This document shows positions 25,437 through 63,054 of a DNA stretch of 64,000 nt, piece after piece. Position numbers and translations under genes: made by a program. Under the pieces are notes generated by a model. The model was not told where the DNA came from. It did not search any database and saw only the letters and a program-made list of their open reading frames with translations. The first letter of the stretch is position 1. Each line of letters starts with the position of its first letter. The stretch lies in NCBI GenBank assembly GCA_000146465.1, contig CP001949.1; one strand, 5' to 3'.

Positions 25437-25509
25437 GTGACCTTAGTGTAGTGGTTATCACGTTCGTCTAACACGCGGAAGGTCCCCAGTTCGAGCCTGG
25501 GAGGTCGCA
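25437..25509 (+). tRNA. tRNA-Val (anticodon AAC)
   Basis: 73-nt cloverleaf: 7-bp acceptor gtgacct/aggtcgc, T-arm cccag-ttcgagc-ctggg, anticodon AAC at 25470-25472; near-identical architecture to metazoan tRNA-Val-AAC; followed by TTTTT. Confidence 0.85.
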
Positions 25510-25557: not shown

Positions 25558-25641
25558 TCTCCCAAGCTGGAGTCGAACCAGCGGCCATTCGATAACGGCA
25601 TACTTCTACAGTCGAATGCTCTACCACTGAGCTATTGGGAG
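25558..25641 (-). tRNA. tRNA-Tyr (anticodon GTA) with a 12-nt intron at the canonical 37/38 position (intron 25594..25605)
   Basis: Acceptor ctcccaa/ttgggag, D-arm gctc-agtggta-gagc, anticodon stem ttcga/tcgaa, loop CUGUAG|A, T-arm gctgg-ttcgact-ccagc; 84 nt = 72 + 12. Confidence 0.85.
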
Positions 25642-51442: not shown

Positions 51443-51536
51443 TCTGTATAGTGGGATGGAACCCAGATGGATTTACCCTGTTTTAAAGTCTCTTTGATAG
51501 ACTTCTTGGATAACAATTATATGCAGACCCCATCAG

Positions 51537-51911
51537 ATGAAGCCGTTTCTTCTAGGCCTCCTCAAGTGCAAAAGATGTTCGTTTACATCAAGACTAGTTC
51601 CTCGATGCGAAAAGGTGAAGAGAAGCAGCATAGATGGAAATGCAAAGATTTTCAACAAGCATACGTTTACAGAGAATGGAGGAGAGAGACTCAAACTTCT
51701 TGTTGAAAGTCTACAGGGCTTTTTTGGCAATTTACTTTCGGAGCAGGAGATCGGATCCTTTGTCGAGGATCCAGACGACGATGAAAGGATAAAGGAGCTT
51801 TTGTTTGGAGTCGATGTTGTAGAGGGAAGCCTGACGTGTGATGAATGCGGCCTTATATACCCGATTAGGGATTCCATTGTGGAGACAGTCGATACTCTTG
51901 AATCTAAATAA
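51537..51911 (+). CDS. TRM112: Trm112 methyltransferase activator
   Basis: MK..LL.LL.C..C N-terminus and a C-terminal zinc-ribbon LLFGVDVVEGSLTCDECGLIYPIRDSI (compare LLEVEVIEGTLQCPESGRMFPI); the ATG is preceded by GACCCCATCAG. Confidence 0.7.
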   Translation: MKPFLLGLLKCKRCSFTSRLVPRCEKVKRSSIDGNAKIFNKHTFTENGGERLKLLVESLQGFFGNLLSEQEIGSFVEDPDDDERIKELLFGVDVVEGSLTCDECGLIYPIRDSIVETVDTLESK

Positions 51912-51974
51912 AATGTTTTTCATGATTGGTGAGTTGATCGTTTCTAGAGAAATCTCTCTCCATTAGCCCTTGGA

Positions 51975-54770
51975 ATGTCGGACATAGAGGCCTTTGTGGC
52001 TTTTTACGAGCATCTGAAGTCTCAAGGAAAGGGAGATTCCGAGCTCCGGAGCGAGGAGCTGGAGAGGGCCATGAGGGAGATGCTGAGGAGAGCAAAGATA
52101 ACGGACTTTAAGGAGTATGCACGAAGTTACAAGTACAAGAGGAGGGAGCTGAGTGGTTTTCAGGAAGTACTGGTGTGGGGAAAGAGGAATTCCATATGGA
52201 ATGGAATGGGAGACATGTTTAGAAGCAGTATGGAGCTTCTCGGGCATTCTGGACAGGTTGATAGAATATGCTTTGACCAAGGAAATAGATTCTTTATGTC
52301 TGGAGGCTCTGATGGAATGATCAAGCTCTGGGACATTTACTCAGGGCTTTTGGTATACAGCTTCATAGGCCACCGAAACCTTGTGAGCGACCTTTGTGTT
52401 AGTAGTGATGGGAAAGTCCTTGTTTCGTGTGATTCCCACGGATTACTGAGCATCTGGTCCTTGGAGAGGTTTGAAATGCTCCTCCAGCTTGAACTGGAAT
52501 GCGAGATTGTCTTTACCGAATTTTTTGACACAGACGACCTATCTACCTATAATCTGATTGTTGTTTTGTCGAAGGGTGTTATCAAGACATACAGGTTTGA
52601 TGAGAGAAGGATAGTGTCTGAGTCTGAAAACCTTTGTCTTCTTGACGAGTCCATCAAGGGCCTGTGCTTTACAGATGGGGGAAGGTTTCTTCTGTGTAGT
52701 GGATGGTGGCCATTTCTTGTTGTCTTCGACACCCAGAACTCCGATGGATGCATAGTTCTTGAGACAAATGGAATGCCGGTGAATACCATATGCGGATCGA
52801 AGAAGGGTCTTAAGATAGCAGCAGCGTGCGACTCTCAAATATTCCAATGGACATTCTTTGCAGAGGGAAATCCTGGAATGGGAAACTTCAAAAGGAGAAC
52901 AAAGGACACGTCGTTAGAGGGACACTGGAAAAGATCTATCACCAAGATTGACATTGGGGAGAACGAGTCGATCGAGAGGATATGCTATCTCCGGGACAAT
53001 TTTCTCGTTTGCATATGCACTGATTTGAAGATAAGGATATTTGCGGGATCTGAGCTTAGATGCATAATAGACATACCGGAAATGGGGATTGCATATCCAC
53101 ATCCTCTGGAGAACATATTTGCCCTCTGCGGTAGTAGCCTTCGAATATATAGCATGGACAAGCTGATCTACGAGGAGATGCTGAGCTTTGCAGCCAATGA
53201 TGGCCAGTTTTCGAATGATGGAGAGTTCTTTGTGTTTGGAGACGAAAGAGGAGTGGTAAGGGTACTTTCGATGAGTTTCCTACCAAAGCCACCGAAGGAG
53301 CAGTTTTTTGAATCCGACCTTGACCACCTTAACTCTACTGAGTGGAATGGAGTTGTTGAGTGCAGGAGAGAATCCACTTATGAGTCGGATAGAAAGAGGA
53401 ACGAAGATTGGTTCCAAGTGGAATATGCCATTACAAAGAAGTCCAACGACTGTGTAAAGGTTGAGGATCTGGGATCAAAGCACTTTGTGAAAGACTTTGT
53501 AGGTCTTGAAGCATTCCGAAAAAAGTACATGAACATTCCCTTGCCTGGGGAGACACAGTCTGTGGAGCAGACAATGATATCTGAGTATAGCAGCAGCATC
53601 CTAGAGGGAGACACATCCAGTGGGTTTTACGAGGAATCTACAGACATGACAGGAGATGAAGAAATATTGTTTGAAGACAAAGGGGCACCTGTAAGAAGAT
53701 CCCTTGTTATCAGTGATGAGTCCTCGGAGATGGTGCCTGTTTTGAGAAGAAACACCCGGGTCTCGGAGGATGTTGAGAACGATTTAAGTCCAACAGGAAT
53801 TGTAAGAAGGTTAAGGAGATTCAATAGAGACCAGGCTGTGGAGGATGAAGAAAACGGAATCCGCATTCTGTCGCTAGAGGGAGGGGACGGTATGGACAGG
53901 AGGGGTGCTGAGCATTGTGCAGGACCTCGTAGTAGTATTAACGACAGCGAAAGAAGTGAACTAGCAGAAAACAGTGATGACCGATATGTGATTGGATTGT
54001 CTGGAGGGATAGGGCATGGAGAGCAGGAGCTAAGGCAGTATGTTCAATCGTGGCTGTCGTCTCCAAGTATGGTACCTCAGCCGGGAGATGTTGTTTACCT
54101 AAACTCCGAAGGCCTGAGAGAATTTCAAATGTTTGATGGGAGAAAGAAGTTTAAGGGGCAAGAAATATGCTCTGGATACTACGAAGTGAGAAGTCTTGAG
54201 GCAGTCAGGTACAGCCCACCATTTCTTAAGGTGGGGCTGGGCCTTAGAGACGAGAGCTTTTCGATAAGATACTACAGGTATCCTGGATCATCTCCTGTGC
54301 TCTTGTTAAGAGAACAGATGAATGCTGGGGCAGGGGATTTTATAAGTTTTGTGTCAAATGGGATAATATCTCGAGGAAGGGTGTCTGGAGTTCGAGGAAT
54401 CCATCTTGTAGTTGATTCTGGAGGGACTTCTGTCCTGGTTGAGAGGCTGGACATGTTAATTCCAAGGGCATTATTTCCTGGGGATATGAAGACCGAGATG
54501 TTAAAAGTACTCAGGCAAAGGAGAATGCACAGAGGACTTTACGTAACCCTGAGAAGAGAGTCAAATCCGTCTTACTACGAGAATGCAACTTCTACTGTCA
54601 ACCTAGGGATTATTGAAGAAAAGATCCTCCACGACTTATATCGGACAATAGGTGGACTGGAGTTTGATCTTGACATGGCAGTTAGTAACTCATTATATTT
54701 GGGGCCAGTTCTTCATGAGCATTGTCAGCAGGCTGTGGAAGGGGTCCGAACGATTATAAGAAGGATTTGA
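51975..54770 (+). CDS. Large WD40-repeat protein (931 aa), family unresolved
   Basis: N-terminal WD40 blades (GHSGQV...SGGSDGMIKLWD...); long C-terminal region without a recognised domain; the ATG is preceded by TTAGCCCTTGGA. Confidence 0.5.
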   Translation: MSDIEAFVAFYEHLKSQGKGDSELRSEELERAMREMLRRAKITDFKEYARSYKYKRRELSGFQEVLVWGKRNSIWNGMGDMFRSSMELLGHSGQVDRICFDQGNRFFMSGGSDGMIKLWDIYSGLLVYSFIGHRNLVSDLCVSSDGKVLVSCDSHGLLSIWSLERFEMLLQLELECEIVFTEFFDTDDLSTYNLIVVLSKGVIKTYRFDERRIVSESENLCLLDESIKGLCFTDGGRFLLCSGWWPFLVVFDTQNSDGCIVLETNGMPVNTICGSKKGLKIAAACDSQIFQWTFFAEGNPGMGNFKRRTKDTSLEGHWKRSITKIDIGENESIERICYLRDNFLVCICTDLKIRIFAGSELRCIIDIPEMGIAYPHPLENIFALCGSSLRIYSMDKLIYEEMLSFAANDGQFSNDGEFFVFGDERGVVRVLSMSFLPKPPKEQFFESDLDHLNSTEWNGVVECRRESTYESDRKRNEDWFQVEYAITKKSNDCVKVEDLGSKHFVKDFVGLEAFRKKYMNIPLPGETQSVEQTMISEYSSSILEGDTSSGFYEESTDMTGDEEILFEDKGAPVRRSLVISDESSEMVPVLRRNTRVSEDVENDLSPTGIVRRLRRFNRDQAVEDEENGIRILSLEGGDGMDRRGAEHCAGPRSSINDSERSELAENSDDRYVIGLSGGIGHGEQELRQYVQSWLSSPSMVPQPGDVVYLNSEGLREFQMFDGRKKFKGQEICSGYYEVRSLEAVRYSPPFLKVGLGLRDESFSIRYYRYPGSSPVLLLREQMNAGAGDFISFVSNGIISRGRVSGVRGIHLVVDSGGTSVLVERLDMLIPRALFPGDMKTEMLKVLRQRRMHRGLYVTLRRESNPSYYENATSTVNLGIIEEKILHDLYRTIGGLEFDLDMAVSNSLYLGPVLHEHCQQAVEGVRTIIRRI

Positions 54771-54808
54771 GGGTTGCGGACATGTAATCAAGGGCTGGGG
54801 TTACCCTG

Positions 54809-55525
54809 ATGTACTACGACGTGAATATTAGTCTGGATTATCCAAAGCAAGATATCGAGGAGCTGGAGAAAAGTGAATACGAAGGGTTTTGTGTGAATAA
54901 GACTATGAGGCCCAAGGACCTCGAAAGACTTTCCCATGGATCTCTTGAGTTTCCTGGGGCAAAGCGTTACTACAACCGTGCGGAGATTGTATTTGGAGAG
55001 GGAGAGCAGATTGGATACGACTTTAGAAAAGCAATGAGATATGATCTGTTTGTTGTGAAGCTGAGCGGGACAGAGGGAATGGATAAGATAATAAAACATC
55101 AGCCAGATATGATTACATTTGACTATGGTGGAAAAGTCCTTCCATTTAAGCCCGGACTTGTCAAGACGGCAATCAGGGAAGGCATATTCTTTGAGATACC
55201 GATGAGAGAGGGCTTGAGAGGAGGGTCTTTAACCATCATGTGGATCCGGAATGTACGGAGACTGCTGTTTATTACAAATGGGAAGAACATTGTAGTTAGC
55301 AGTGGGGCCCAATGCTCCATGGAGATTAAGAAAGTCAGAGATGTTGTTAAGATGCTTGAGATGTTTGGACTTGGGGAGAAAAGAGCACTGGAAGTGATGC
55401 TCAACTCGGAGAGGCTTTTAAAGAGGTGTGCAATGAAAAGGCATTGCTACAGAGACTCGATTGTGCACAGTGTGGATGAAGGGGCCCTAAAAAGGGACTT
55501 TGTACTGTCTCTGTACAAAAATTGA
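54809..55525 (+). CDS. RNase P/MRP protein subunit Rpp30 (Rpp1, PHP/TIM-barrel)
   Basis: Aligns with Rpp30 end to end: MYYDVNISL (MAVFADLDL), GF.VN, MITFDY, GIFFEI, GKNIVVSSGAQ..MEI....DVVKMLEMFGL.EKRALEVM (GKNVIISSAAERPLEIRGPYDVANLGLLFGLSESDAKAAV); the ATG is preceded by TTACCCTG. Confidence 0.7.
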   Translation: MYYDVNISLDYPKQDIEELEKSEYEGFCVNKTMRPKDLERLSHGSLEFPGAKRYYNRAEIVFGEGEQIGYDFRKAMRYDLFVVKLSGTEGMDKIIKHQPDMITFDYGGKVLPFKPGLVKTAIREGIFFEIPMREGLRGGSLTIMWIRNVRRLLFITNGKNIVVSSGAQCSMEIKKVRDVVKMLEMFGLGEKRALEVMLNSERLLKRCAMKRHCYRDSIVHSVDEGALKRDFVLSLYKN

Positions 55526-55589
55526 TTTTTTACAAAATAAAGTCTACGACTAATAAGACTTGTATTTTTGATTACCTTTCCAAGGCTCG

Positions 55590-56243
55590 ATGTTCTTTGA
55601 TGTAAATGTAAGTAACAGATGCCCAAGAGGGGATCTGGATGTTTTAAAGGAGCTTGGATGGGATGGAATCTGCATAAACACTGTTGTTGGCTTGGACAAC
55701 CTGGAAGGATGGAGCAGTCCCCTTCTTGATGTGTGGAAGGACGAGAAGGCCTATGAGAGGATAGAGGTAAGATACAAGGATAATGAGAAGTGGAGTGAAG
55801 TTAGAAAGATGGTGAATCCTGATGTGCTTTCGGTGAGAATAGAAGGGGTTGAAGACTTTAAGAAAGCTCTCGAGGTTTCTCCAGACGTGATTACATTTGA
55901 TTATTCCAGGAGCTTCTGTCTCGGAAAGGACGAAGTTTTTGAAGCTGTGAAGAGAAATATATTTCTTGAGATTCCATTGGTGTGTGGGATGTATGGCCAG
56001 AGAAACAAAGTTGTATGGATGAGAAATGCCAGAAAACTTGTGGAGATCACGGGGGGAGTGAATGTTGTGGTTGGGAGCGGGGCGTCATGTTGTACAGAGA
56101 TGAGAAGTTCCCATGACATTATAAAGATATTGGGAGGACTTGGAACGAGTGGAGACTGTGGAAGGAAGATACTGCAGAACTCTGGGAGGCTGATCAGGTC
56201 CTGCAGAATAAGAAAAGGATGTGTTATGAAGGAAGAGATATGA
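55590..56243 (+). CDS. Divergent Rpp30-like paralogue, tandem to 54809..55525
   Basis: Shares MFFDVNVS, VITFDY, NIFLEIP, GVNVVVGSGASC.TEMRS..DIIKILGGLG with its neighbour. Confidence 0.55.
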   Translation: MFFDVNVSNRCPRGDLDVLKELGWDGICINTVVGLDNLEGWSSPLLDVWKDEKAYERIEVRYKDNEKWSEVRKMVNPDVLSVRIEGVEDFKKALEVSPDVITFDYSRSFCLGKDEVFEAVKRNIFLEIPLVCGMYGQRNKVVWMRNARKLVEITGGVNVVVGSGASCCTEMRSSHDIIKILGGLGTSGDCGRKILQNSGRLIRSCRIRKGCVMKEEI

Positions 56244-56327
56244 TTGGTTCCTTGAAGATGAGATTCTGAAACATCTCTAGTTCTGTGACTACTGAGATAA
56301 ATAGAATTCTGAATCCAAACCAAAGGC

Positions 56328-57674
56328 ATGGGAGCAAGAAAAAACAGGATGAGAGGACGAGGTAGAATTCAAGGGGCTGGGAGAAGTATTGTTATTGAGA
56401 GAAGTGAGGTTAAGAAGGAAGAGAAGGCGGAAGGGAAGTTCAATGTCGATTTCCAGGAGCTTAACGAAGAACTATCTGGCATCGAATTAAAAGAGGAGAA
56501 TTCAAAGTGCTCTGATGTTGATGAGATGGTGTGTGAGAGAGTCTGCAAAGACGACAAAGTTGAGGAAGTACCTGAGGTATCCGAGATTAATAGGGAAAAT
56601 ACAGTGGATGAAGAGGTGGAGGCTGAGAAGAAGGAAGAGAATATCGAAAACAGAAAGGAAGAAGGAGAAGATGCTGTAAAAGCATCGCAAGCCCTCTATC
56701 CAGCAACACCCAGTGTATTGACCACTGTTATACCTCAGACACCAATGAGGAGGGTACTTCATGAGGAAGGAAGCCATCTTTTTGTTAAGGAGGAAAGTAT
56801 GGCTCTTCCTGGGAAGGTGATTATCAATAGGTATCCGGGACATTTGTTTATTCATATAGACCAGGTCGAGAGGTTCATGACATCCAGGAAGGAGGTGGAG
56901 AGTGTATCTATTAAGATTGAATCGAAGGGGATCTTCTATGAGACAAAGAAATATCCAGTGCAGCCGGACATAGGAATCAACGAGATGCTGCAAGTCCCCA
57001 TCAACAAGGCCGAGAGCAATGGAACACCTCTGAGATTTATACTTCTCCTGTACCACAGGTCTGGAAATATAGTAAAGTCGTGTGAAACTGTGCTTGTGGT
57101 TGACGGAAGTAGAATCCGCTCAATACATAACAATCTTCTCGAAAGTAGATTGGCATGGGACAACTATGTGTCGAGGAATCTATTTAAAAGCATTCGAAGC
57201 TTTTTTACAAGTGGAGCACCTGATGCATGGAGCCTGAAGATTTACTTGTCGTTTGTGTCGGACGATGAGCTTAGGTTGATTCCTGCGCCTCTTCCTCAGG
57301 ACCTTAAGTCCCTCAGCAAGTGGCTGGTGGTGAAGAAGTTTTCTTATAACATATGGTTTAGAGGATTTGTGAATGTCCGGGGAGATGTTGAAAAGGCATG
57401 TACCAACCTATGGAAGAGAAGATATGTTCGATGCTATGGATACATGATCTTTATATTTAACGAGCATTCGAGAAGCCTTGTTGGGACAATAAACCTCGTG
57501 GATGCAAGCTTTGATCCAAGCACGAGTAACAAGGTATATTTAGAGAACTTTCTTCGGATTAATGTTGGGGAGAAGGTGGTTGAGTTGCATTTTGACACAA
57601 AGGACAAATATAATACATGTAGGAGCGCACTTACCATGATGCTTCCACGAACACTGTTTCACAAGAAGGGGTGA
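56328..57674 (+). CDS. Protein with an acidic N-terminal half and a C-terminal PH-like domain
   Basis: C-terminal block LVVKKFSYNIWFRGFVNVRG...WKRRYVRCYGYMIFIFNE...INLVDASF...LHFDTKDKYNTCRSALTMM fits the PH-domain pattern. Confidence 0.4.
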   Translation: MGARKNRMRGRGRIQGAGRSIVIERSEVKKEEKAEGKFNVDFQELNEELSGIELKEENSKCSDVDEMVCERVCKDDKVEEVPEVSEINRENTVDEEVEAEKKEENIENRKEEGEDAVKASQALYPATPSVLTTVIPQTPMRRVLHEEGSHLFVKEESMALPGKVIINRYPGHLFIHIDQVERFMTSRKEVESVSIKIESKGIFYETKKYPVQPDIGINEMLQVPINKAESNGTPLRFILLLYHRSGNIVKSCETVLVVDGSRIRSIHNNLLESRLAWDNYVSRNLFKSIRSFFTSGAPDAWSLKIYLSFVSDDELRLIPAPLPQDLKSLSKWLVVKKFSYNIWFRGFVNVRGDVEKACTNLWKRRYVRCYGYMIFIFNEHSRSLVGTINLVDASFDPSTSNKVYLENFLRINVGEKVVELHFDTKDKYNTCRSALTMMLPRTLFHKKG

Positions 57675-57806
57675 TCTGGCAGACGATGTGTTTCCTGAAA
57701 CCTATCTTATTAAAGAATTGAATACGGCCTTTCTCTATGTTCTGATGGAGGGAAGTTTTCCCGCCAAGCCTAAGGATTTCAAGAAAATCCAGGATCCTGG
57801 GAGTTT

Positions 57807-58112
57807 ATGCGGCCTGTTTTGAACGAGACAACGAATGCTACCAAAAGACTGGAGACAAAGAGTAAGGAAGGGGAAAGTGACAAGGGAAGGGTGCTCCACT
57901 TCCTGAAGGGTGTCTACGCAACGACCAGGGACTATTCGTTGAAGTATGACCTGAAGAAATGTATGGAGATAATTGAAGGGAAAGAGAACCAAGAGGTCAT
58001 CGACCTTAAGAATGCGTTGTCTGAAGCTCTTATAGAGAACGAGACGCTGTTTGCAGAGAAATGCGAGCTTGCAGTTACTCTGGAATGTATGAAAGCAGAA
58101 AGAAAGGAGTGA
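57807..58112 (+). CDS. Small hypothetical protein (101 aa)
   Basis: ATG ORF; upstream CAGGATCCTGGGAG. Confidence 0.3.
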   Translation: MRPVLNETTNATKRLETKSKEGESDKGRVLHFLKGVYATTRDYSLKYDLKKCMEIIEGKENQEVIDLKNALSEALIENETLFAEKCELAVTLECMKAERKE

Positions 58113-58196
58113 TCACTGGACTCTGATATACATTAAAGGACTTATTTACTATTTGGTATTGAGAGATGGATTTTTGGCGGGACACCCCTCGGCTGA

Positions 58197-58472
58197 ATGG
58201 AGTTGCGATATAGATTGTAAGTGGAAGCAACTAATTTTAGGGTTTTTGGCAGAAAGGGTGTTCTGATCGAAGACCGAGCTCTGAAGGAGTTTGTGAGCGG
58301 GCTTATCCGGGGCTTTGGGGGCCTTGATTTGCTGAGCAGAGTTAGTGTAAGATGTGATGGAGGAGTGATCAATATCTCGGCGGACAAAGAGGCTTCTAGC
58401 ATTGTGCATGGATCTCTATTTCTCTGCGGAGAGTATAAGTCTGTTGGATGTAGATTTGAGCGAATCGATTAA
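58197..58472 (+). CDS. Small two-exon gene (exons 58197..58216 and 58241..58472), 83 aa, probable ribosomal protein eL38 with a short N-terminal extension
   Basis: A 20-nt first exon (ATGGAGTTGCGATATAGATT) followed by the consensus 24-nt intron GTAAGTGGAAGCAACTAATTTTAG joins in phase to the track ORF, whose apparent start is a GTG inside the intron; VSVRC...ADKEASSIVHGSL parallels eL38 VKFKVRC...DKEKAEKLKQSL. Confidence 0.45.
58217..58240 (+). other. Spliceosomal intron, 24 nt
   Basis: GTAAGTGG...TAATTTTAG. Confidence 0.6.
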
Positions 58473-58529
58473 ATGGTTTATCAAGTGTCATTACTATAAA
58501 TTATTCCAAATGATTTGTTTAAAAAACAG

Positions 58530-59804
58530 ATGCATAGAAAAACAATGACAGAGAGCTTGGATGGATACAGGGAGATAACCGAGATCCGGAGAGACAGGAG
58601 GATTGTGATAAGCTCTGCCGTAGATGTAGTGACTGGAGAAAAGGTTATTCTTGAGGAGGCAGATCTTTCTGGGATTTCTTCGTACTACCAGCCGTTATTG
58701 ATGGGTTTTTTACTAGAGCATGAACTCAACAACTCGCCTTATGTGATGAAGGTGATGAGGGTTTTTGAGAGCTCTAACCGAATTTATGTGGTACAGAGGC
58801 ATATGTCTCTTGGGCCTGTGGATACTACGATTGGAAACCAAATCTTTGTGAGCGATGACTTTGTGTTCTATGTATTTATGCAAGTGGTGTATGCCATGAA
58901 GCTGAACGGGGAAGAGGGATGGTTTTGGGACCGAATGTCGCCAAGATACATATGGATTGATGAGGATGGGAAAGTCCGAATATGCTGGGCAGATGTTGTA
59001 TTGGGGAATATGAAGGCGATGGTTAAGCAGTTGGATAAGTGGAACGGAAGAATGAAGAGTGAAGAGAAGACAACAGGGGGAGATAAGGTTAATTCTGGGT
59101 GCGAGGGGTCGGTGTCCTTTGGAAATCTAAGAAGGATTTTTGTGTCGCTAGCTCTGGGTGTATCGGAAGTGTCGAAAGTCATGTATTCTTGGAACGGCAG
59201 GATTGGGAGATCTGGATTCTTGGGACATATCCAGGGTCTTTCGCCGGATCTAGACGGGCTTGCATCGCTTCTGTTTGAGGATGGAGTCGGGATAAAAGAT
59301 CTTGAAGAGTATACACGGAGGATGATCCAAGAAAAGAGAATAGCCAGTAATCCTCGGGAGATATTCAAATCCCTGGGAACTGTTTTGGAAGAGATGAAAA
59401 GAGACGAAAACAAGACGTTGGAAGAAACAAGGGCATGGAATGGAAAGTCCCCGAGAACAGAAGAACCGGAAAGCGGAAGTGGGTCTGAGGAGAGCGGGAG
59501 AAATATGAGCGAGAGTGGGAGTAGAGGAGATGATGAAAGAGTTGGATCTTTTGGGACAAGAGAGTACAGAAAAGGGAGATTCTATGTATGCGATGCCATT
59601 CCCTTAGGAGAAAGAGAAAAAGGCCTAGGGATGAATGATCAGATGAAGAGAATGGGCCGAATTGTGAATGTACAAAATCGGCAGATAAGTCTTCTTACAG
59701 GTGTAATGAGGAAATCAGGACTCCTAGACAAGGAGACAGATGCAGAACTTGGAGAATTAGAAGATCTAGTGAATTTTCTGTTGTTTGGAGTGGAGAGGCA
59801 GTAG
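58530..59804 (+). CDS. Protein-kinase-like protein, probably a pseudokinase
   Basis: Kinase-fold landmarks are degenerate (no GxGxxG; HRD replaced by WDRMSP; DFG replaced by WAD); the track start at 58515 is a TTG; the ATG is at 58530. Confidence 0.35.
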   Translation: MHRKTMTESLDGYREITEIRRDRRIVISSAVDVVTGEKVILEEADLSGISSYYQPLLMGFLLEHELNNSPYVMKVMRVFESSNRIYVVQRHMSLGPVDTTIGNQIFVSDDFVFYVFMQVVYAMKLNGEEGWFWDRMSPRYIWIDEDGKVRICWADVVLGNMKAMVKQLDKWNGRMKSEEKTTGGDKVNSGCEGSVSFGNLRRIFVSLALGVSEVSKVMYSWNGRIGRSGFLGHIQGLSPDLDGLASLLFEDGVGIKDLEEYTRRMIQEKRIASNPREIFKSLGTVLEEMKRDENKTLEETRAWNGKSPRTEEPESGSGSEESGRNMSESGSRGDDERVGSFGTREYRKGRFYVCDAIPLGEREKGLGMNDQMKRMGRIVNVQNRQISLLTGVMRKSGLLDKETDAELGELEDLVNFLLFGVERQ

Positions 59805-59867
59805 AAACATATTATAGATAAAATCTGTTTAATCTATTTCTTCTTTGAACGATCTCCAAGCCCTCGA

Positions 59868-60758
59868 ATGGAGGAAATCGTTTACTTATGCGATTTGAGC
59901 TTTTACTCGTCGTCTGTGGCAGGAGATTCGCTAATTGCCTCGGACAAGATGGGGGGAGTACACATAATAGCTCCGGAAATAAGCACAGTGAATATAGATC
60001 ATTTCAAGAAGGATGTTAACTTCTATCCTGTTGATGATTTATGCTTCACCACCACAGACATGTTCAAGGGAATACGGGTGTGGGATAGATGCCGGGGAGA
60101 CATAGTGTATTCATATAAAGAAGATAGCATCAAGATGCATACATACAGCAGGACGGGATGTTTAGCAGCTGTTGGAGAAGGATGTGTGAAACTTTATGAT
60201 CTCCGTGTCAGGTACAATATTGATGCAGTGCCTCTAAAGATGTGCAAGAAAGCAGAATGGGGAAATGACAGGATTTATTGCATCAACGACGAGTGTGTGG
60301 TTGAATATGATACTCGGAACATGAGTAGCATGGTATGCGGAGAGAAGAATGAGGCCTATCTGAAGAAAAAGAATATTGAGGGAATTCTCGACCTTATCAG
60401 TATTAGTAAGGGGGAGTTTTGTACGGTGAAAAGAGATGGGGTCCCATATCTCATGAGATTGTCTGGGGTAGATGTGATGGAAGGGACAAGAAGAGCATCG
60501 ATTGGATGGAAGATGATAAAGGTTAAGGATACGTCTGATGATTTTGTGATTGGAATGGTAAGCGAAAACACTGTAGGATTCTACGGGTATAAGGACACGT
60601 GGACTCATGAATTTGATGGGATTAGTCATGTGGACTGGATGTGCTTTTCCAAAAGGAAAATCTATATGTTTGCAGATAAAAAGATTTATCTCATAGAGAG
60701 AGAGTACGAAGGGTTGAAGGAGCTTATGAAGGAAGGGCCTGGGTCCTTGGAAGAATGA
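59868..60758 (+). CDS. Hypothetical beta-rich (WD-like) protein, 296 aa
   Basis: The ATG is preceded by CAAGCCCTCGA. Confidence 0.4.
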   Translation: MEEIVYLCDLSFYSSSVAGDSLIASDKMGGVHIIAPEISTVNIDHFKKDVNFYPVDDLCFTTTDMFKGIRVWDRCRGDIVYSYKEDSIKMHTYSRTGCLAAVGEGCVKLYDLRVRYNIDAVPLKMCKKAEWGNDRIYCINDECVVEYDTRNMSSMVCGEKNEAYLKKKNIEGILDLISISKGEFCTVKRDGVPYLMRLSGVDVMEGTRRASIGWKMIKVKDTSDDFVIGMVSENTVGFYGYKDTWTHEFDGISHVDWMCFSKRKIYMFADKKIYLIEREYEGLKELMKEGPGSLEE

Positions 60759-60820
60759 GCAAGGAAGCCCCTGGAGATTGTAGTGAATAAAAATGGATTA
60801 GGAGATGGGCTGTAAACAAA

Positions 60821-62986
60821 ATGAAATTCAAGAGGACAATACAGAAAACATTTGGATCGTCGAAGATAAAGAGTATACAGGTGCATCCTACCAAGCCGAT
60901 AGGGATAATGGGGCTGTTTTCTGGGGATATCCAGGTTTGGGACATCGACAAAATGGGAATGATAAACAGCATCCATGTGTGTAATGAACCGATAAGAACC
61001 TGTGCAATCTTGAGTAGGATGGACTGGGTACTTGTGGGAAGTGACAACGGAAAGGTTAGCATATACGAACTGGGAAAGTACAGGAAGATCAAGATGTTTC
61101 ATGGGCATGACGACTTCATCAGGAAGATCGAGGTCCACCCACAGGAACCGATGTTTTTGACTGCCTCCGATGATTCGACACTGAAGAGCTGGACATATGA
61201 AGAGGAGATTGTTCAGAAGATGGTATACACAGGACACAAGCACTTTGTAATGGATGTTTGTTTTTACCCGAATGACTGCAGTAAGTTCGTATCGTGCTCT
61301 CTGGACTCCACAATCAAGGTATGGCACATAGGACAGCCGCATTGTGTGAAAACGTTCAAGGGACACGCGTCTGGAGTAAACAGTATATGCTTTCTGAGTG
61401 GAGATTATCTGGTTTCTGGGGCAGACGACCTAACATTGAAGGTTTGGGACTTCCAAACAACACAGTGCATAACAACCCTCGCAGGACATACAAACAATGT
61501 CAACAAGGTGTATCCGTTTAGTAGCTTCTCTCTTTTTGCTTCATGTGGAGAGGATGGAAGCATGCGGCTATGGAACAGCAAGACATTCAAGCAGGAGGAT
61601 CTGATTATGCTGCAAGGGGGAAGAGTATGGGATGTGAAGGAGAAGGACGGAAGGATAATTGTTGGGTGTGATGAAGAGCTTGTCTTTATCAATGCTTGGC
61701 AGGGATCATCTCTTGTTCGGATGAGTAGGAACAGAATATTCTACTCTGCATCTGGGTCTATGTTTGGTACCAGGAGTGACAACATAGGTGTGGTCAAAGA
61801 GTTGCATAACATTGGATTCTACCCCGACGAGTTAGAGGTGTCCCCGAGTGGAAAGACAATAGCAGTTGGGAACGAGGGAGAGTTTAAGATCTTTTCATCT
61901 CTGGGATTTCGAAACAAGTTTGGCGGAGAGGGAAGAGATTTCCACTTCATAGAGGATGATGAATTTGTTGTGAGAAACGGAGAGGTTGTGAACTTCTACA
62001 AGAAGGCCGAAGTGATCCGAAGTATTAGCATCAAGGGGATCAGCAAAGTGTTTTTTCTAAGTCCTAGGTTGATAGGATGCAATGTCTGCGATCAGACGAG
62101 AATTTACCTATCTACTGGAGAGTTCGTGTCATCTGTTAGTCATGCGTCCGACCATCTTGCCATGATCGGAGACTTTCTGATTGCATGTGGAGCATTTATA
62201 AGCATCTACAGAGTGGACCATGAAGTGATCAACGGGTTTATTGAACAGGAGATTGAGATTCCAGAGGAAGGGATAAAGGAAGCATTAATACATCTTGGGA
62301 CTGAGTACTATTCGGTAGCATCCTGGTGTGCAAAAGAAGATGTTTTCTACTTTGTATCAAATGGTAAGGGATACTATCTCATCCTGGGAGACAAGCCATA
62401 TGTATATCATTTTTCATCTATTGACGGCACAATTGCCGGAGTTGAGAACGGAGTTCTGTTTTATCTCCGCGACAAATCAATTGAGTGCAAAAGGATAGAT
62501 GGGGAGTTTCTTGAGTTCCAAAGATCTGTAATACTTGGGAAAGAATACAAGGTGACGGAGGGGATCCGCAGTAAGGCGATTGCATTTTTCGAGTCTCTGG
62601 AAATGCACGAGAATGCTCTAGATCTTTGCATAGACGACAACCAGAGATTTGAGATTCTTCTCAAGCTGGACAGGTATGATGAGGCATTTTCAAAAGCAAA
62701 CAGTATAGTCAAGTATGACAAGCTTGGAAGATACTTTCTCAGGGCCGGAGAGCTTCCGAAGGCATCTGAATGCTTTCTTAAGTCGAGGAACTGGGTAAGC
62801 TTGCTCCTTTCAGACATTCTATCTTCGAAGAAAAATCTTTCTCTTGCAGCATCCGAGTGTAAAAAAGAGGGAAGGCTGAACCATGCATTCTTCGCATACC
62901 TCAAGAGCGGACAGTATATTGAGTGTGCCAAACTGCTGGAAAAAACTCCTTTCTCGACCTTGTTTGCTAAGAACTATCTTGATTAA
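60821..62986 (+). CDS. Coatomer subunit beta-prime (COPB2/Sec27), short form
   Basis: N-terminal WD40 propellers (IQVHPTKPIGIMGLFSGDIQVWD... compare [23 protein letters not shown]) and a C-terminal alpha-solenoid. Confidence 0.85.
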   Translation: MKFKRTIQKTFGSSKIKSIQVHPTKPIGIMGLFSGDIQVWDIDKMGMINSIHVCNEPIRTCAILSRMDWVLVGSDNGKVSIYELGKYRKIKMFHGHDDFIRKIEVHPQEPMFLTASDDSTLKSWTYEEEIVQKMVYTGHKHFVMDVCFYPNDCSKFVSCSLDSTIKVWHIGQPHCVKTFKGHASGVNSICFLSGDYLVSGADDLTLKVWDFQTTQCITTLAGHTNNVNKVYPFSSFSLFASCGEDGSMRLWNSKTFKQEDLIMLQGGRVWDVKEKDGRIIVGCDEELVFINAWQGSSLVRMSRNRIFYSASGSMFGTRSDNIGVVKELHNIGFYPDELEVSPSGKTIAVGNEGEFKIFSSLGFRNKFGGEGRDFHFIEDDEFVVRNGEVVNFYKKAEVIRSISIKGISKVFFLSPRLIGCNVCDQTRIYLSTGEFVSSVSHASDHLAMIGDFLIACGAFISIYRVDHEVINGFIEQEIEIPEEGIKEALIHLGTEYYSVASWCAKEDVFYFVSNGKGYYLILGDKPYVYHFSSIDGTIAGVENGVLFYLRDKSIECKRIDGEFLEFQRSVILGKEYKVTEGIRSKAIAFFESLEMHENALDLCIDDNQRFEILLKLDRYDEAFSKANSIVKYDKLGRYFLRAGELPKASECFLKSRNWVSLLLSDILSSKKNLSLAASECKKEGRLNHAFFAYLKSGQYIECAKLLEKTPFSTLFAKNYLD

Positions 62987-63054
62987 ATAAGTCGGTGGCT
63001 ATGTTCTTCTTTCCAGGACCCGGGATACACAAATTCTGATAGGAAGGATCCCTG

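What the first reader, a model, noticed from the sequence alone, without database searches (positions are those of the whole stretch)
54809..56243. Tandem pair of divergent Rpp30 (RNase P/MRP p30) paralogues
Two adjacent same-strand genes (238 and 217 aa, 64 bp apart) are clearly paralogous to each other. The first aligns end to end with the Rpp30/Rpp1 PHP-barrel subunit. Eukaryotic RNase P/MRP normally has a single Rpp30. A retained, diverged duplicate in a streamlined genome suggests subfunctionalisation (for example P-specific versus MRP-specific) or a new partner of the RNase P RNA.
Basis: partly seen in the sequence, partly recalled or inferred. Interest (0 to 1): 0.55.

Follow-up and report, generated by a model that had tools for sequence, protein, structure and literature searches.

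The report
Tandem Rpp30 paralogues in Encephalitozoon
Two neighbouring genes in the parasite Encephalitozoon intestinalis both encode the Rpp30 protein of the tRNA- and rRNA-processing enzymes RNase P and MRP; because each enzyme carries two Rpp30 copies in different places, the two genes probably now supply one place each, which is a modest but real variation on a well-known machine.

Summary
The window is E. intestinalis chromosome VIII. Genes at 54809-55525 (A, 238 aa, Eint_081190) and 55590-56243 (B, 217 aa, Eint_081200, annotated "uncharacterized") lie 64 bp apart on the + strand. They are 32% identical (E 3e-36). Both pass Pfam RNase_P_p30 (122.6 and 85.9 bits; cutoff 35), and both models fold like yeast Rpp1 and human Rpp30.

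The pair is old and kept. The same A-B tandem in the same gene neighbourhood was checked in E. romaleae, E. hellem, Ordospora colligata and three unnamed relatives, with partial copies in a fourth. Both genes are under purifying selection (dN/dS 0.06-0.08 for A, 0.15-0.18 for B).

A is the conservative copy. It is basic and keeps the C-terminal DEGxLKRDF tail found in nearly all microsporidian Rpp30s. B is the derived copy: net charge about +2 against +10.6, a segment that is basic in the other Rpp30s compared turned neutral or acidic, and no tail.

Solved yeast and human RNase P/MRP hold two Rpp30 protomers in non-equivalent positions. My best reading (about 50%, inferred) is that A and B each fill one position. 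This is a new variant of a known kind, of moderate interest.

The parts
54809..55525 (+). Gene A (Eint_081190), 238 aa: the conservative Rpp30/Rpp1 paralogue
   Evidence: ORF. PF01876 at 122.6 bits. PDB sequence hits to yeast Rpp1 (8e-8) and human Rpp30 (3e-6). AF2 model pLDDT 89.6. Foldseek top hits 6agb_J, 7c79_J, 6w6v_I, 6ahr. dN/dS 0.06-0.08. pI about 9.4 and net charge about +10.6 across the clade.
55590..56243 (+). Gene B (Eint_081200), 217 aa: the derived Rpp30 paralogue, annotated 'uncharacterized'
   Evidence: ORF. PF01876 at 85.9 bits. AF2 model pLDDT 79.7. Foldseek top hits 6w6v_I, 6agb_J, 7c79_J, 6agb_I, 6ahr_I. dN/dS 0.15-0.18. pI about 8.0 and net charge about +2.3 across the clade. 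Keeps the family-wide invariant residues D4, D78, D99, E127, S163, A165, N197.
55526..55589 (+). 64-bp A-B spacer, with AATAAA at 55536-55541 just after A's TGA stop (55523-55525)
   Evidence: Read directly from the sequence. That this marks separate transcripts is inference only.
55442..55522 (+). C-terminal tail of A (residues 212-238, HCYRDSIVHSVDEGALKRDFVLSLYKN), absent from B
   Evidence: The DEGxLK(R)DF motif is conserved in all 12 A orthologues and in most single-copy microsporidian Rpp30s. It is missing from all 11 B-clade proteins. The start of the tail aligns to yeast Rpp1 residues 240-254 and to the archaeal C-terminal strand region.
55127..55171 (+). Basic segment of A (residues 107-121, GGKVLPFKPGLVKTA)
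   Evidence: Net charge is +1 to +4 in 51 of the 53 non-B Rpp30s compared; two score 0. It aligns to P. horikoshii Rpp30 R107/K108.
55905..55946 (+). Corresponding segment of B (residues 106-119, SRSFCLGKDEVFEA), neutral to acidic
   Evidence: Net charge is -4 to +1 across the B clade, with a D/E-rich pattern ending in a near-invariant Glu. The same pattern occurs in P0031.

Best explanation
Both genes encode Rpp30/Rpp1-type subunits of nuclear RNase P and RNase MRP. They arose by a tandem duplication that predates the Encephalitozoon-Ordospora split, and both have been kept under purifying selection. A is the conservative copy and B the derived one. The most likely mechanism is position-specific subfunctionalisation. 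The holoenzyme contains two Rpp30 protomers in non-equivalent places, one on each side of a Pop5-type dimer. Only one of them is linked through its C-terminus to Pop4/Rpp29 and lies against substrate and RNA. I propose that A fills that position: it is basic and keeps the conserved C-terminal tail. B would fill the other, less constrained position: it has lost about 8 positive charges and the tail. This would repeat, on the Rpp30 side, what happened early in eukaryotes on the Pop5 side, when one Pop5 copy became the acidic, non-RNA-binding Pop8/Rpp14. Shown here: paralogy, family membership, fold, conservation of the tandem pair, purifying selection, and asymmetric divergence. Inferred: that both proteins sit in the same complex, and which position each takes.
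For: Identity and family.

Tandem pair conserved. The same neighbourhood (WD40 gene, A, B, an unnamed gene of about 340-470 aa, DUF5101) was checked in E. romaleae, E. hellem, O. colligata and three unnamed relatives. Two partial metagenome contigs show it as well.

No gene conversion. A and B orthologues form separate clades.

Purifying selection. A has dN/dS 0.06-0.08 and B 0.15-0.18, against 0.04-0.16 for neighbouring genes.

Asymmetric divergence. Of the alignment columns, 32 are conserved in both copies, 22 only in A and 3 only in B. The A-only columns cluster at residues 92-117 and in the last helix (L204, A208, R211), which are also conserved in other microsporidia. Mean pI and net charge are 9.4 and +10.6 for A, 8.0 and +2.3 for B, and 9.0 and +7.4 for single-copy microsporidian Rpp30.

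Charge loss in the segment at A 107-121, and loss of the DEGxLKRDF tail in B.

Literature. Yeast P and MRP contain Pop5-Pop8-(Rpp1)2, and only one Rpp1 copy lines the substrate pocket (PMC7351766). Human has Pop5-Rpp14-(Rpp30)2, with Rpp29 contacting only one of the two Rpp30s (PMC8509007). The Rpp30 C-terminal tail docks as a beta strand on the Rpp29 barrel, and this link is conserved in human (PMC6565675). Pop8 is acidic and structural (PMC6061874).

Solved structures. Chain J of 6agb has 293 residues, the full length, while chain I has 242. For 6ahr the figures are J 247 and I 236. This is consistent with the C-terminus being ordered in only one protomer.
Against: There is no direct evidence that A and B are in one particle; no co-purification, expression or multimer model was available. 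Named relatives outside this group each yielded one Rpp30, so a second paralogue is not required for function: Nosema granulosis, N. bombycis, Vairimorpha necatrix, V. apis, Hamiltosporidium, Spraguea, Binucleata and Gurleya. B keeps a short, poorly conserved hydrophobic stub after its last helix (for example YVVK or CVMK), so some C-terminal docking cannot be ruled out. I had no coordinates of the solved complexes, so the A-only and B-only columns could not be mapped onto the two protomers' contacts. Which residues are missing from chain I of 6agb is inferred from chain lengths only.
Confidence: 0.5

Rival explanations
1. Complex-specific paralogues: one copy serves RNase P and the other RNase MRP.
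For: [quoted passage not shown] Paralogue pairs that distinguish P from MRP exist elsewhere in the complex: Rpr2/Snm1 and RPP21/RMP24 (PMC7351766, PMC12819141). B's altered charge could reflect a different RNA partner.
Against: [quoted passage not shown] No organism is known with a P- or MRP-specific Rpp30. A complex with two B protomers would lack the conserved C-terminal tail and much of the basic surface. Other microsporidia serve both enzymes with one Rpp30.
Confidence: 0.15
2. B has left RNase P/MRP and taken a new role, as another RNP, a regulator, or a decoy that binds Pop5.
For: B has lost about 8 net positive charges, the conserved tail, and 22 constraints that A and other microsporidia keep. 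It evolves about twice as fast as A (dN 0.154 against 0.074 for E. hellem versus E. romaleae). Its AF2 confidence is lower.
Against: B keeps 32 columns conserved with A, including the residues invariant or nearly invariant across the 40 eukaryotic Rpp30s aligned: D4, D79, D100, E129, S165, A167, N199 in A numbering. It has the same barrel fold, with Rpp1/Rpp30 as best matches. It gained very few constraints of its own (3 B-only and 2 switched columns), which looks like partial loss of function and not gain of a new one.
Confidence: 0.15
3. B is a redundant or slowly decaying duplicate with no distinct role.
For: B has a higher dN/dS than A and fewer conserved columns. One species' annotation calls it 'uncharacterized'.
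Against: An intact ORF of 212-221 aa lies at the same position in seven lineages whose loci I checked (a further metagenome contig, L005, carries a 194-aa B). These reach back to the Encephalitozoon-Ordospora ancestor and share only 41-64% identity. dN/dS of 0.15-0.18 is close to the top of the range seen for neighbouring genes, 0.04-0.16. B-specific conserved features exist: E118, K140 and the acidic segment. Microsporidian genomes are compact and would not be expected to keep a useless gene (general knowledge, not tested here).
Confidence: 0.1

Closest known systems
Rpp30 / Rpp1 subunit of nuclear and archaeal RNase P and of RNase MRP (Pfam PF01876; PDB 6AGB, 6AHR, 6W6V, 6K0A)
   Same: Both proteins pass the family profile and share the barrel fold and the family-wide invariant residues. 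A also keeps the basic character and a conserved C-terminal tail.
   Different: Other eukaryotes described in the papers I could search use one gene for both protomers. Here there are two diverged genes (32% identity), and one of them (B) lacks the tail and most of the net positive charge.
Pop5 and its paralogue Pop8 (yeast) / Rpp14 (human) in the same tetramer
   Same: A symmetric archaeal (Pop5-Rpp30)2 module became asymmetric through duplication of one component. One copy lost RNA-binding character: Pop8 is acidic, with pI 4.6 (PMC6061874, PMC6565675). B shows the same direction of change.
   Different: That duplication affected the Pop5 side and dates to early eukaryotes. This one affects the Rpp30 side and is confined to one microsporidian lineage. 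B is only less basic (pI about 8), not acidic. No Pop8 has been found in microsporidia (PMC1636426).
Rpr2/Snm1 (yeast) and RPP21/RMP24 (human): paralogues specific to P or to MRP
   Same: A duplicated RNase P/MRP subunit with divided roles.
   Different: Those pairs bind the specificity domains, which differ between the P and MRP RNAs. Rpp30 binds the shared catalytic domain (PMC7351766, PMC12819141).

Membership tests
Rpp30/Rpp1 (PF01876 RNase_P_p30) | Sequence match to the family profile above the curated threshold | tested here: met
   A scores 122.6 bits and B 85.9 bits; the cutoff is 35.
Rpp30/Rpp1 (PF01876 RNase_P_p30) | Alpha/beta barrel fold closest to solved Rpp1/Rpp30 chains | tested here: met
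   The AF2 models (pLDDT 89.6 and 79.7) have as top 13 PDB matches only Rpp1/Rpp30 from yeast, human and archaeal structures, with TM 0.57-0.79 normalised to the query.
Rpp30/Rpp1 (PF01876 RNase_P_p30) | Residues invariant or nearly invariant across the 40 eukaryotic Rpp30s aligned (D4, D79, D100, E129, S165, A167, N199 in A numbering) | tested here: met
   All are present in A and in B (B numbering D4, D78, D99, E127, S163, A165, N197).
Rpp30/Rpp1 (PF01876 RNase_P_p30) | Conserved C-terminal tail beyond the barrel, which in archaeal and human enzymes links Rpp30 to Rpp29/Pop4 | tested here: inconclusive
   A has a conserved tail that aligns to the yeast and archaeal tail region. B lacks it apart from a variable stub of 4-10 residues. 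Only sequence was tested, not binding.
Rpp30/Rpp1 (PF01876 RNase_P_p30) | Physical presence in RNase P/MRP, bound to a Pop5-type partner | not testable with these tools
Position-specific paralogue pair within one complex (Pop5/Pop8-like) | Both paralogues retained together across descendant lineages | tested here: met
   Full tandem A-B pairs were checked in seven lineages, plus two partial contigs from an eighth.
Position-specific paralogue pair within one complex (Pop5/Pop8-like) | Asymmetric divergence in which one copy loses contacts used at only one position | tested here: met
   There are 22 A-only against 3 B-only conserved columns. Net charge is +10.6 against +2.3. B has lost the tail and the charge of the basic segment.
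Position-specific paralogue pair within one complex (Pop5/Pop8-like) | One protomer of each paralogue per holoenzyme | not testable with these tools
   Needs purification with mass spectrometry, or a multimer model.
P-specific / MRP-specific paralogue pair (Rpr2/Snm1-like) | Each paralogue associates with only one of the two RNAs | not testable with these tools
   No RNA-association data. The window holds no P or MRP RNA gene (Rfam scan).
Pseudogene or decaying duplicate | Disrupted reading frame or neutral substitution pattern | tested here: not met
   ORFs are intact in all lineages examined, and dN/dS is 0.15-0.18.

The most novel reading that the evidence does not exclude
[quoted passage not shown] That would be a second, independent break in the symmetry of the ancient (Pop5-Rpp30)2 module, made on the Rpp30 side, in a lineage where no Pop8/Rpp14 has been found. 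The asymmetry that other eukaryotes encode with Pop5/Pop8 would then be encoded, at least in part, by Rpp30 paralogues. It would also be a clear case of a homomeric pair turning heteromeric in a genome that is otherwise shrinking.
Probability: 0.45. Interest if true: 0.55.

Novelty: new variant of a known kind. Interest (0 to 1): 0.4.

Why it matters
RNase P and MRP are essential and ancient. How their protein shell went from a symmetric archaeal assembly to an asymmetric eukaryotic one is known mainly from a single event, the Pop5 to Pop8/Rpp14 duplication. A lineage-specific Rpp30 duplication with clearly asymmetric divergence offers a natural second example. It shows which Rpp30 features (tail, basic segment, last helix) are probably needed at only one of the two positions. 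It could also be tested directly by co-expression or purification from a minimal enzyme with few subunits. Practically, Eint_081200 and its orthologues labelled 'uncharacterized' or 'hypothetical' can be annotated as Rpp30 paralogues. The finding does not change how RNase P is thought to work.

Tried and rejected
1. Dating the duplication by phylogeny. A neighbour-joining tree of 65 Rpp30s with 200 bootstraps supports the microsporidian clade (96%) and the B core (79%). The backbone is unresolved (0-6%), and B plus P0031 has only 41%. The tree therefore cannot say whether B arose before or after the Nosema/Vairimorpha split. No maximum-likelihood software was available.

2. Looking for B-type copies elsewhere. 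A full HMMER search of 1.84 billion representatives found 1079 Rpp30s. I scored 39 top hits and the 28 short ones among the lower-ranked hits against A and B profiles. Only the Encephalitozoon/Ordospora group and P0031 are B-like. A few non-microsporidian hits score slightly higher on the B profile only because they are truncated.

3. P0031 and P0024. These come from two short contigs of 22.6% GC in one sequencing run. I checked whether the contigs abut as a tandem pair and found no overlap; a different ORF fragment lies upstream of P0031. They may belong to one organism, but co-infection by two species is not excluded.

4. Archaeal mutational data. I tried to link B's changed segment to published mutations of P. 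horikoshii Rpp30. The literature search found nothing usable. My recollection that R107 matters for activity is memory only and carries no weight here.

5. Other database routes. Sequence searches against solved structures with B alone gave mostly noise, such as RSV fusion protein at E about 0.5. The profile search was needed. An AFDB fold search to find named species with two copies was not possible because that library was unavailable.

6. Local context. I looked for RNase P/MRP RNA genes or other subunits near the pair. The Rfam scan found only a tRNA. The ten neighbouring genes scanned are unrelated or have no Pfam match.

7. Literature on the duplication. No paper in the searchable library pairs Encephalitozoon with Rpp30. 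None of the six papers found for Rpp30 with 'paralog' and 'duplication' has a title or abstract about such a duplication, and the one I read (PMC10966300) does not mention it. The 2006 subunit inventory lists Rpp1 in microsporidia without mentioning two copies.

Full report
**What is there**

The window is chromosome VIII of Encephalitozoon intestinalis ATCC 50506. All four proteins I looked up are exact matches to its records.
- Gene A (54809-55525, +, 238 aa) is Eint_081190, annotated 'RNase P subunit p30-like'.
- Gene B (55590-56243, +, 217 aa) is Eint_081200, annotated 'uncharacterized protein'.
- They are 64 bp apart. An AATAAA lies at 55536-55541, just after A's stop codon.

A and B align over 213 residues at 32% identity with two gaps, E 3e-36. 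Both pass Pfam RNase_P_p30: A at 122.6 bits and B at 85.9 bits, against a cutoff of 35. A finds yeast Rpp1 and human Rpp30 among solved structures by sequence alone. B alone finds Rpp1 only weakly, but a family profile finds both clearly.

AlphaFold2 models are good for A (pLDDT 89.6) and acceptable for B (79.7). For both, the top 13 PDB matches are Rpp1/Rpp30 chains from yeast RNase P and MRP, human RNase P and archaeal RNase P. PHP-type enzymes follow far behind.

**How old and how stable is the pair**

B orthologues exist in E. romaleae, E. hellem and E. cuniculi, and A orthologues also in Ordospora. I fetched loci and found the same order each time: a WD40 gene of about 930 aa, then A, then B, then an unnamed gene of about 340-470 aa, then DUF5101. 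Loci with the full tandem pair:
- E. romaleae
- E. hellem
- O. colligata, two assemblies
- three unnamed relatives assembled from public sequencing runs

Two partial contigs from one metagenome study add a further lineage. The duplication therefore predates the Encephalitozoon-Ordospora split.

A and B orthologues form separate clades with no sign of gene conversion. Within Encephalitozoon, dN/dS is 0.06-0.08 for A and 0.15-0.18 for B. Neighbouring genes range from 0.04 to 0.16. dS is 1.0-2.4, close to saturation, so these values are approximate. Both genes are under purifying selection, and B changes about twice as fast as A at the protein level.

**How far back does it go**

A full HMMER search of 1.84 billion representative proteins found 1079 Rpp30s. 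The named microsporidia among the top hits each appear once: Nosema granulosis, N. bombycis, Vairimorpha necatrix, V. apis, Hamiltosporidium, Spraguea, Binucleata and Gurleya. The N. granulosis gene has no tandem partner.

One exception is informative. A single sequencing run (SRR25435973) yielded two short contigs of 22.6% GC.
- One carries an A-type protein (P0024).
- The other carries P0031, which has B's acidic segment but still keeps the C-terminal tail.

If both contigs come from one organism, the duplication is older than the Encephalitozoon/Ordospora group, and the tail was lost later. The tree cannot settle this: the backbone has 0-6% bootstrap support, and B plus P0031 has 41%.

**How the copies differ**

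A behaves like the single-copy Rpp30 of other microsporidia. B is the derived copy.
- Conserved columns: 32 alignment columns are conserved in both copies, 22 only in A and 3 only in B. Two are conserved in both but with different residues.
- Where the A-only columns lie: they cluster at residues 92-117 and in the last helix (L204, A208, R211). The last-helix positions are 100% conserved in other microsporidia.
- Charge: mean pI and net charge are 9.4 and +10.6 for A, 8.0 and +2.3 for B, and 9.0 and +7.4 for the single-copy proteins.
- The basic segment: the stretch at A 107-121 (FKxGLVKT) carries +1 to +4 in 51 of the 53 non-B Rpp30s compared, microsporidian and other eukaryotic. In the B clade it is -4 to +1, with a D/E-rich pattern ending in a near-invariant Glu. 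It aligns to R107/K108 of P. horikoshii Rpp30.
- The tail: A ends in a 27-residue tail carrying the motif DEGxLKRDF, which most microsporidian Rpp30s share. A related acidic-DF-hydrophobic ending occurs in several non-microsporidian eukaryotic sequences. B stops a few variable residues after the last helix.
- What B keeps: every residue that is invariant or nearly invariant across the 40 eukaryotic Rpp30s aligned.

**What is known about the complex**

- Yeast RNase P and MRP both contain Pop5, Pop8 and two copies of Rpp1 in a heterotetramer. It binds the catalytic domain of both RNAs in the same way, and only one Rpp1 copy lines the substrate pocket (PMC7351766).
- Human RNase P has Pop5-Rpp14-(Rpp30)2. 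One Rpp30 contacts Rpp40, and the other contacts Rpp29 (PMC8509007).
- The archaeal ancestor is a symmetric (Pop5-Rpp30)2. There, the long C-terminal tail of Rpp30 forms a beta strand on the edge of the Rpp29 barrel, and this link is conserved in human RNase P. Eukaryotes broke the symmetry when one Pop5 became Pop8/Rpp14 (PMC6565675).
- Pop8 is acidic and structural (PMC6061874).
- In the solved yeast enzyme one Rpp1 chain has 293 residues, the full length, and the other 242. In human the figures are 247 and 236. This fits a C-terminus that is ordered at only one position.
- Microsporidia have a reduced subunit set: Pop1, Pop4, Pop5, Rpp1, Rpr2 and Rmp1. [quoted passage not shown]

**Best explanation**

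A and B most likely fill the two non-equivalent Rpp30 positions of one holoenzyme. A would sit at the Pop4-linked, RNA- and substrate-facing position. B would sit at the other, where the tail and part of the basic surface are not needed and could be lost. This accounts for four things:
- the joint retention of both genes;
- the one-sided loss of constraints;
- the loss of charge, which parallels Pop8;
- the loss of the tail.

Co-residence in one particle, and the assignment of each copy to a position, are inferred and not shown. I put this reading at about 0.5.

**Rivals**

- P-specific versus MRP-specific copies (0.15). This is possible because no Snm1 is known in microsporidia. It is disfavoured because the tetramer binds the shared catalytic domain, and because known P/MRP specificity lies with Rpr2/Snm1-type and Rmp1-type subunits (PMC7351766, PMC12819141).
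- B working outside RNase P/MRP (0.15). This fits the lost features, but not the retained family core or the near absence of new B-specific constraints.
- A redundant or decaying copy (0.1). Conservation across seven checked lineages and the dN/dS values argue against it.

**Novelty and limits**

The gene models and their Pfam assignment are already in public databases. Some species' records name both copies as p30-like or RPP1. I found no paper that notes or interprets the duplication. I rate it a new variant of a known kind, of moderate interest.

I could not do the following:
- run a multimer prediction;
- search the whole genome for Pop5/Pop8 paralogues;
- map the divergent columns onto the coordinates of the two protomers;
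- obtain expression or proteomic data.

Noticed in passing
L007:665-1363 (P0031) and L008:945-1676 (P0024), both from run SRR25435973: An unnamed, very AT-rich (22.6% GC) microsporidian sample carries an A-type Rpp30 and a B-type Rpp30 that still has the C-terminal tail. They are on separate short contigs and do not appear to be adjacent. This looks like an intermediate stage of B's divergence and may push the duplication further back.
   Followed up: partly
window 56328-57674 (+), 448 aa, Eint_081210: An unnamed gene with no Pfam match sits immediately downstream of B. A gene of about 340-470 aa occupies the same position in every related locus examined (dN/dS 0.12-0.15). Its function is unknown.
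   Followed up: partly
window 57807-58112 (+), 101 aa: A DUF5101 protein (PF17031, 128 bits), syntenic downstream of the Rpp30 pair in all the relatives examined.
   Followed up: no
window 25437-25509 (+) and 25558-25641 (-): ARAGORN finds two convergently oriented tRNA genes 48 bp apart: tRNA-Val(AAC) and an 84-nt tRNA-Leu(TAG). The Rfam scan at gathering threshold reported only the Leu gene.
   Followed up: no
P0035 (Vairimorpha necatrix) and P0039 (V. apis), in the alignment: The Vairimorpha Rpp30s have a six-residue deletion exactly in the helix after the basic FK/FR motif, the same segment that changed charge in B. This surface seems unusually changeable in this part of the tree.
   Followed up: no
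window about 51500-63000: Every clear gene in this stretch is on the + strand: Trm112, WD40, Rpp30 A and B, the 448-aa gene, DUF5101, a 429-aa and a 296-aa gene, and a coatomer beta-prime-like gene. GC skew is strongly positive here (0.26-0.36), which probably reflects coding-strand bias.
   Followed up: no
window 51975-54770 (+), 931 aa: A large protein with WD40 repeats only in roughly its first 300 residues. The remaining 600 or so residues have no Pfam match. It is always immediately upstream of Rpp30 A in the related loci.
   Followed up: no
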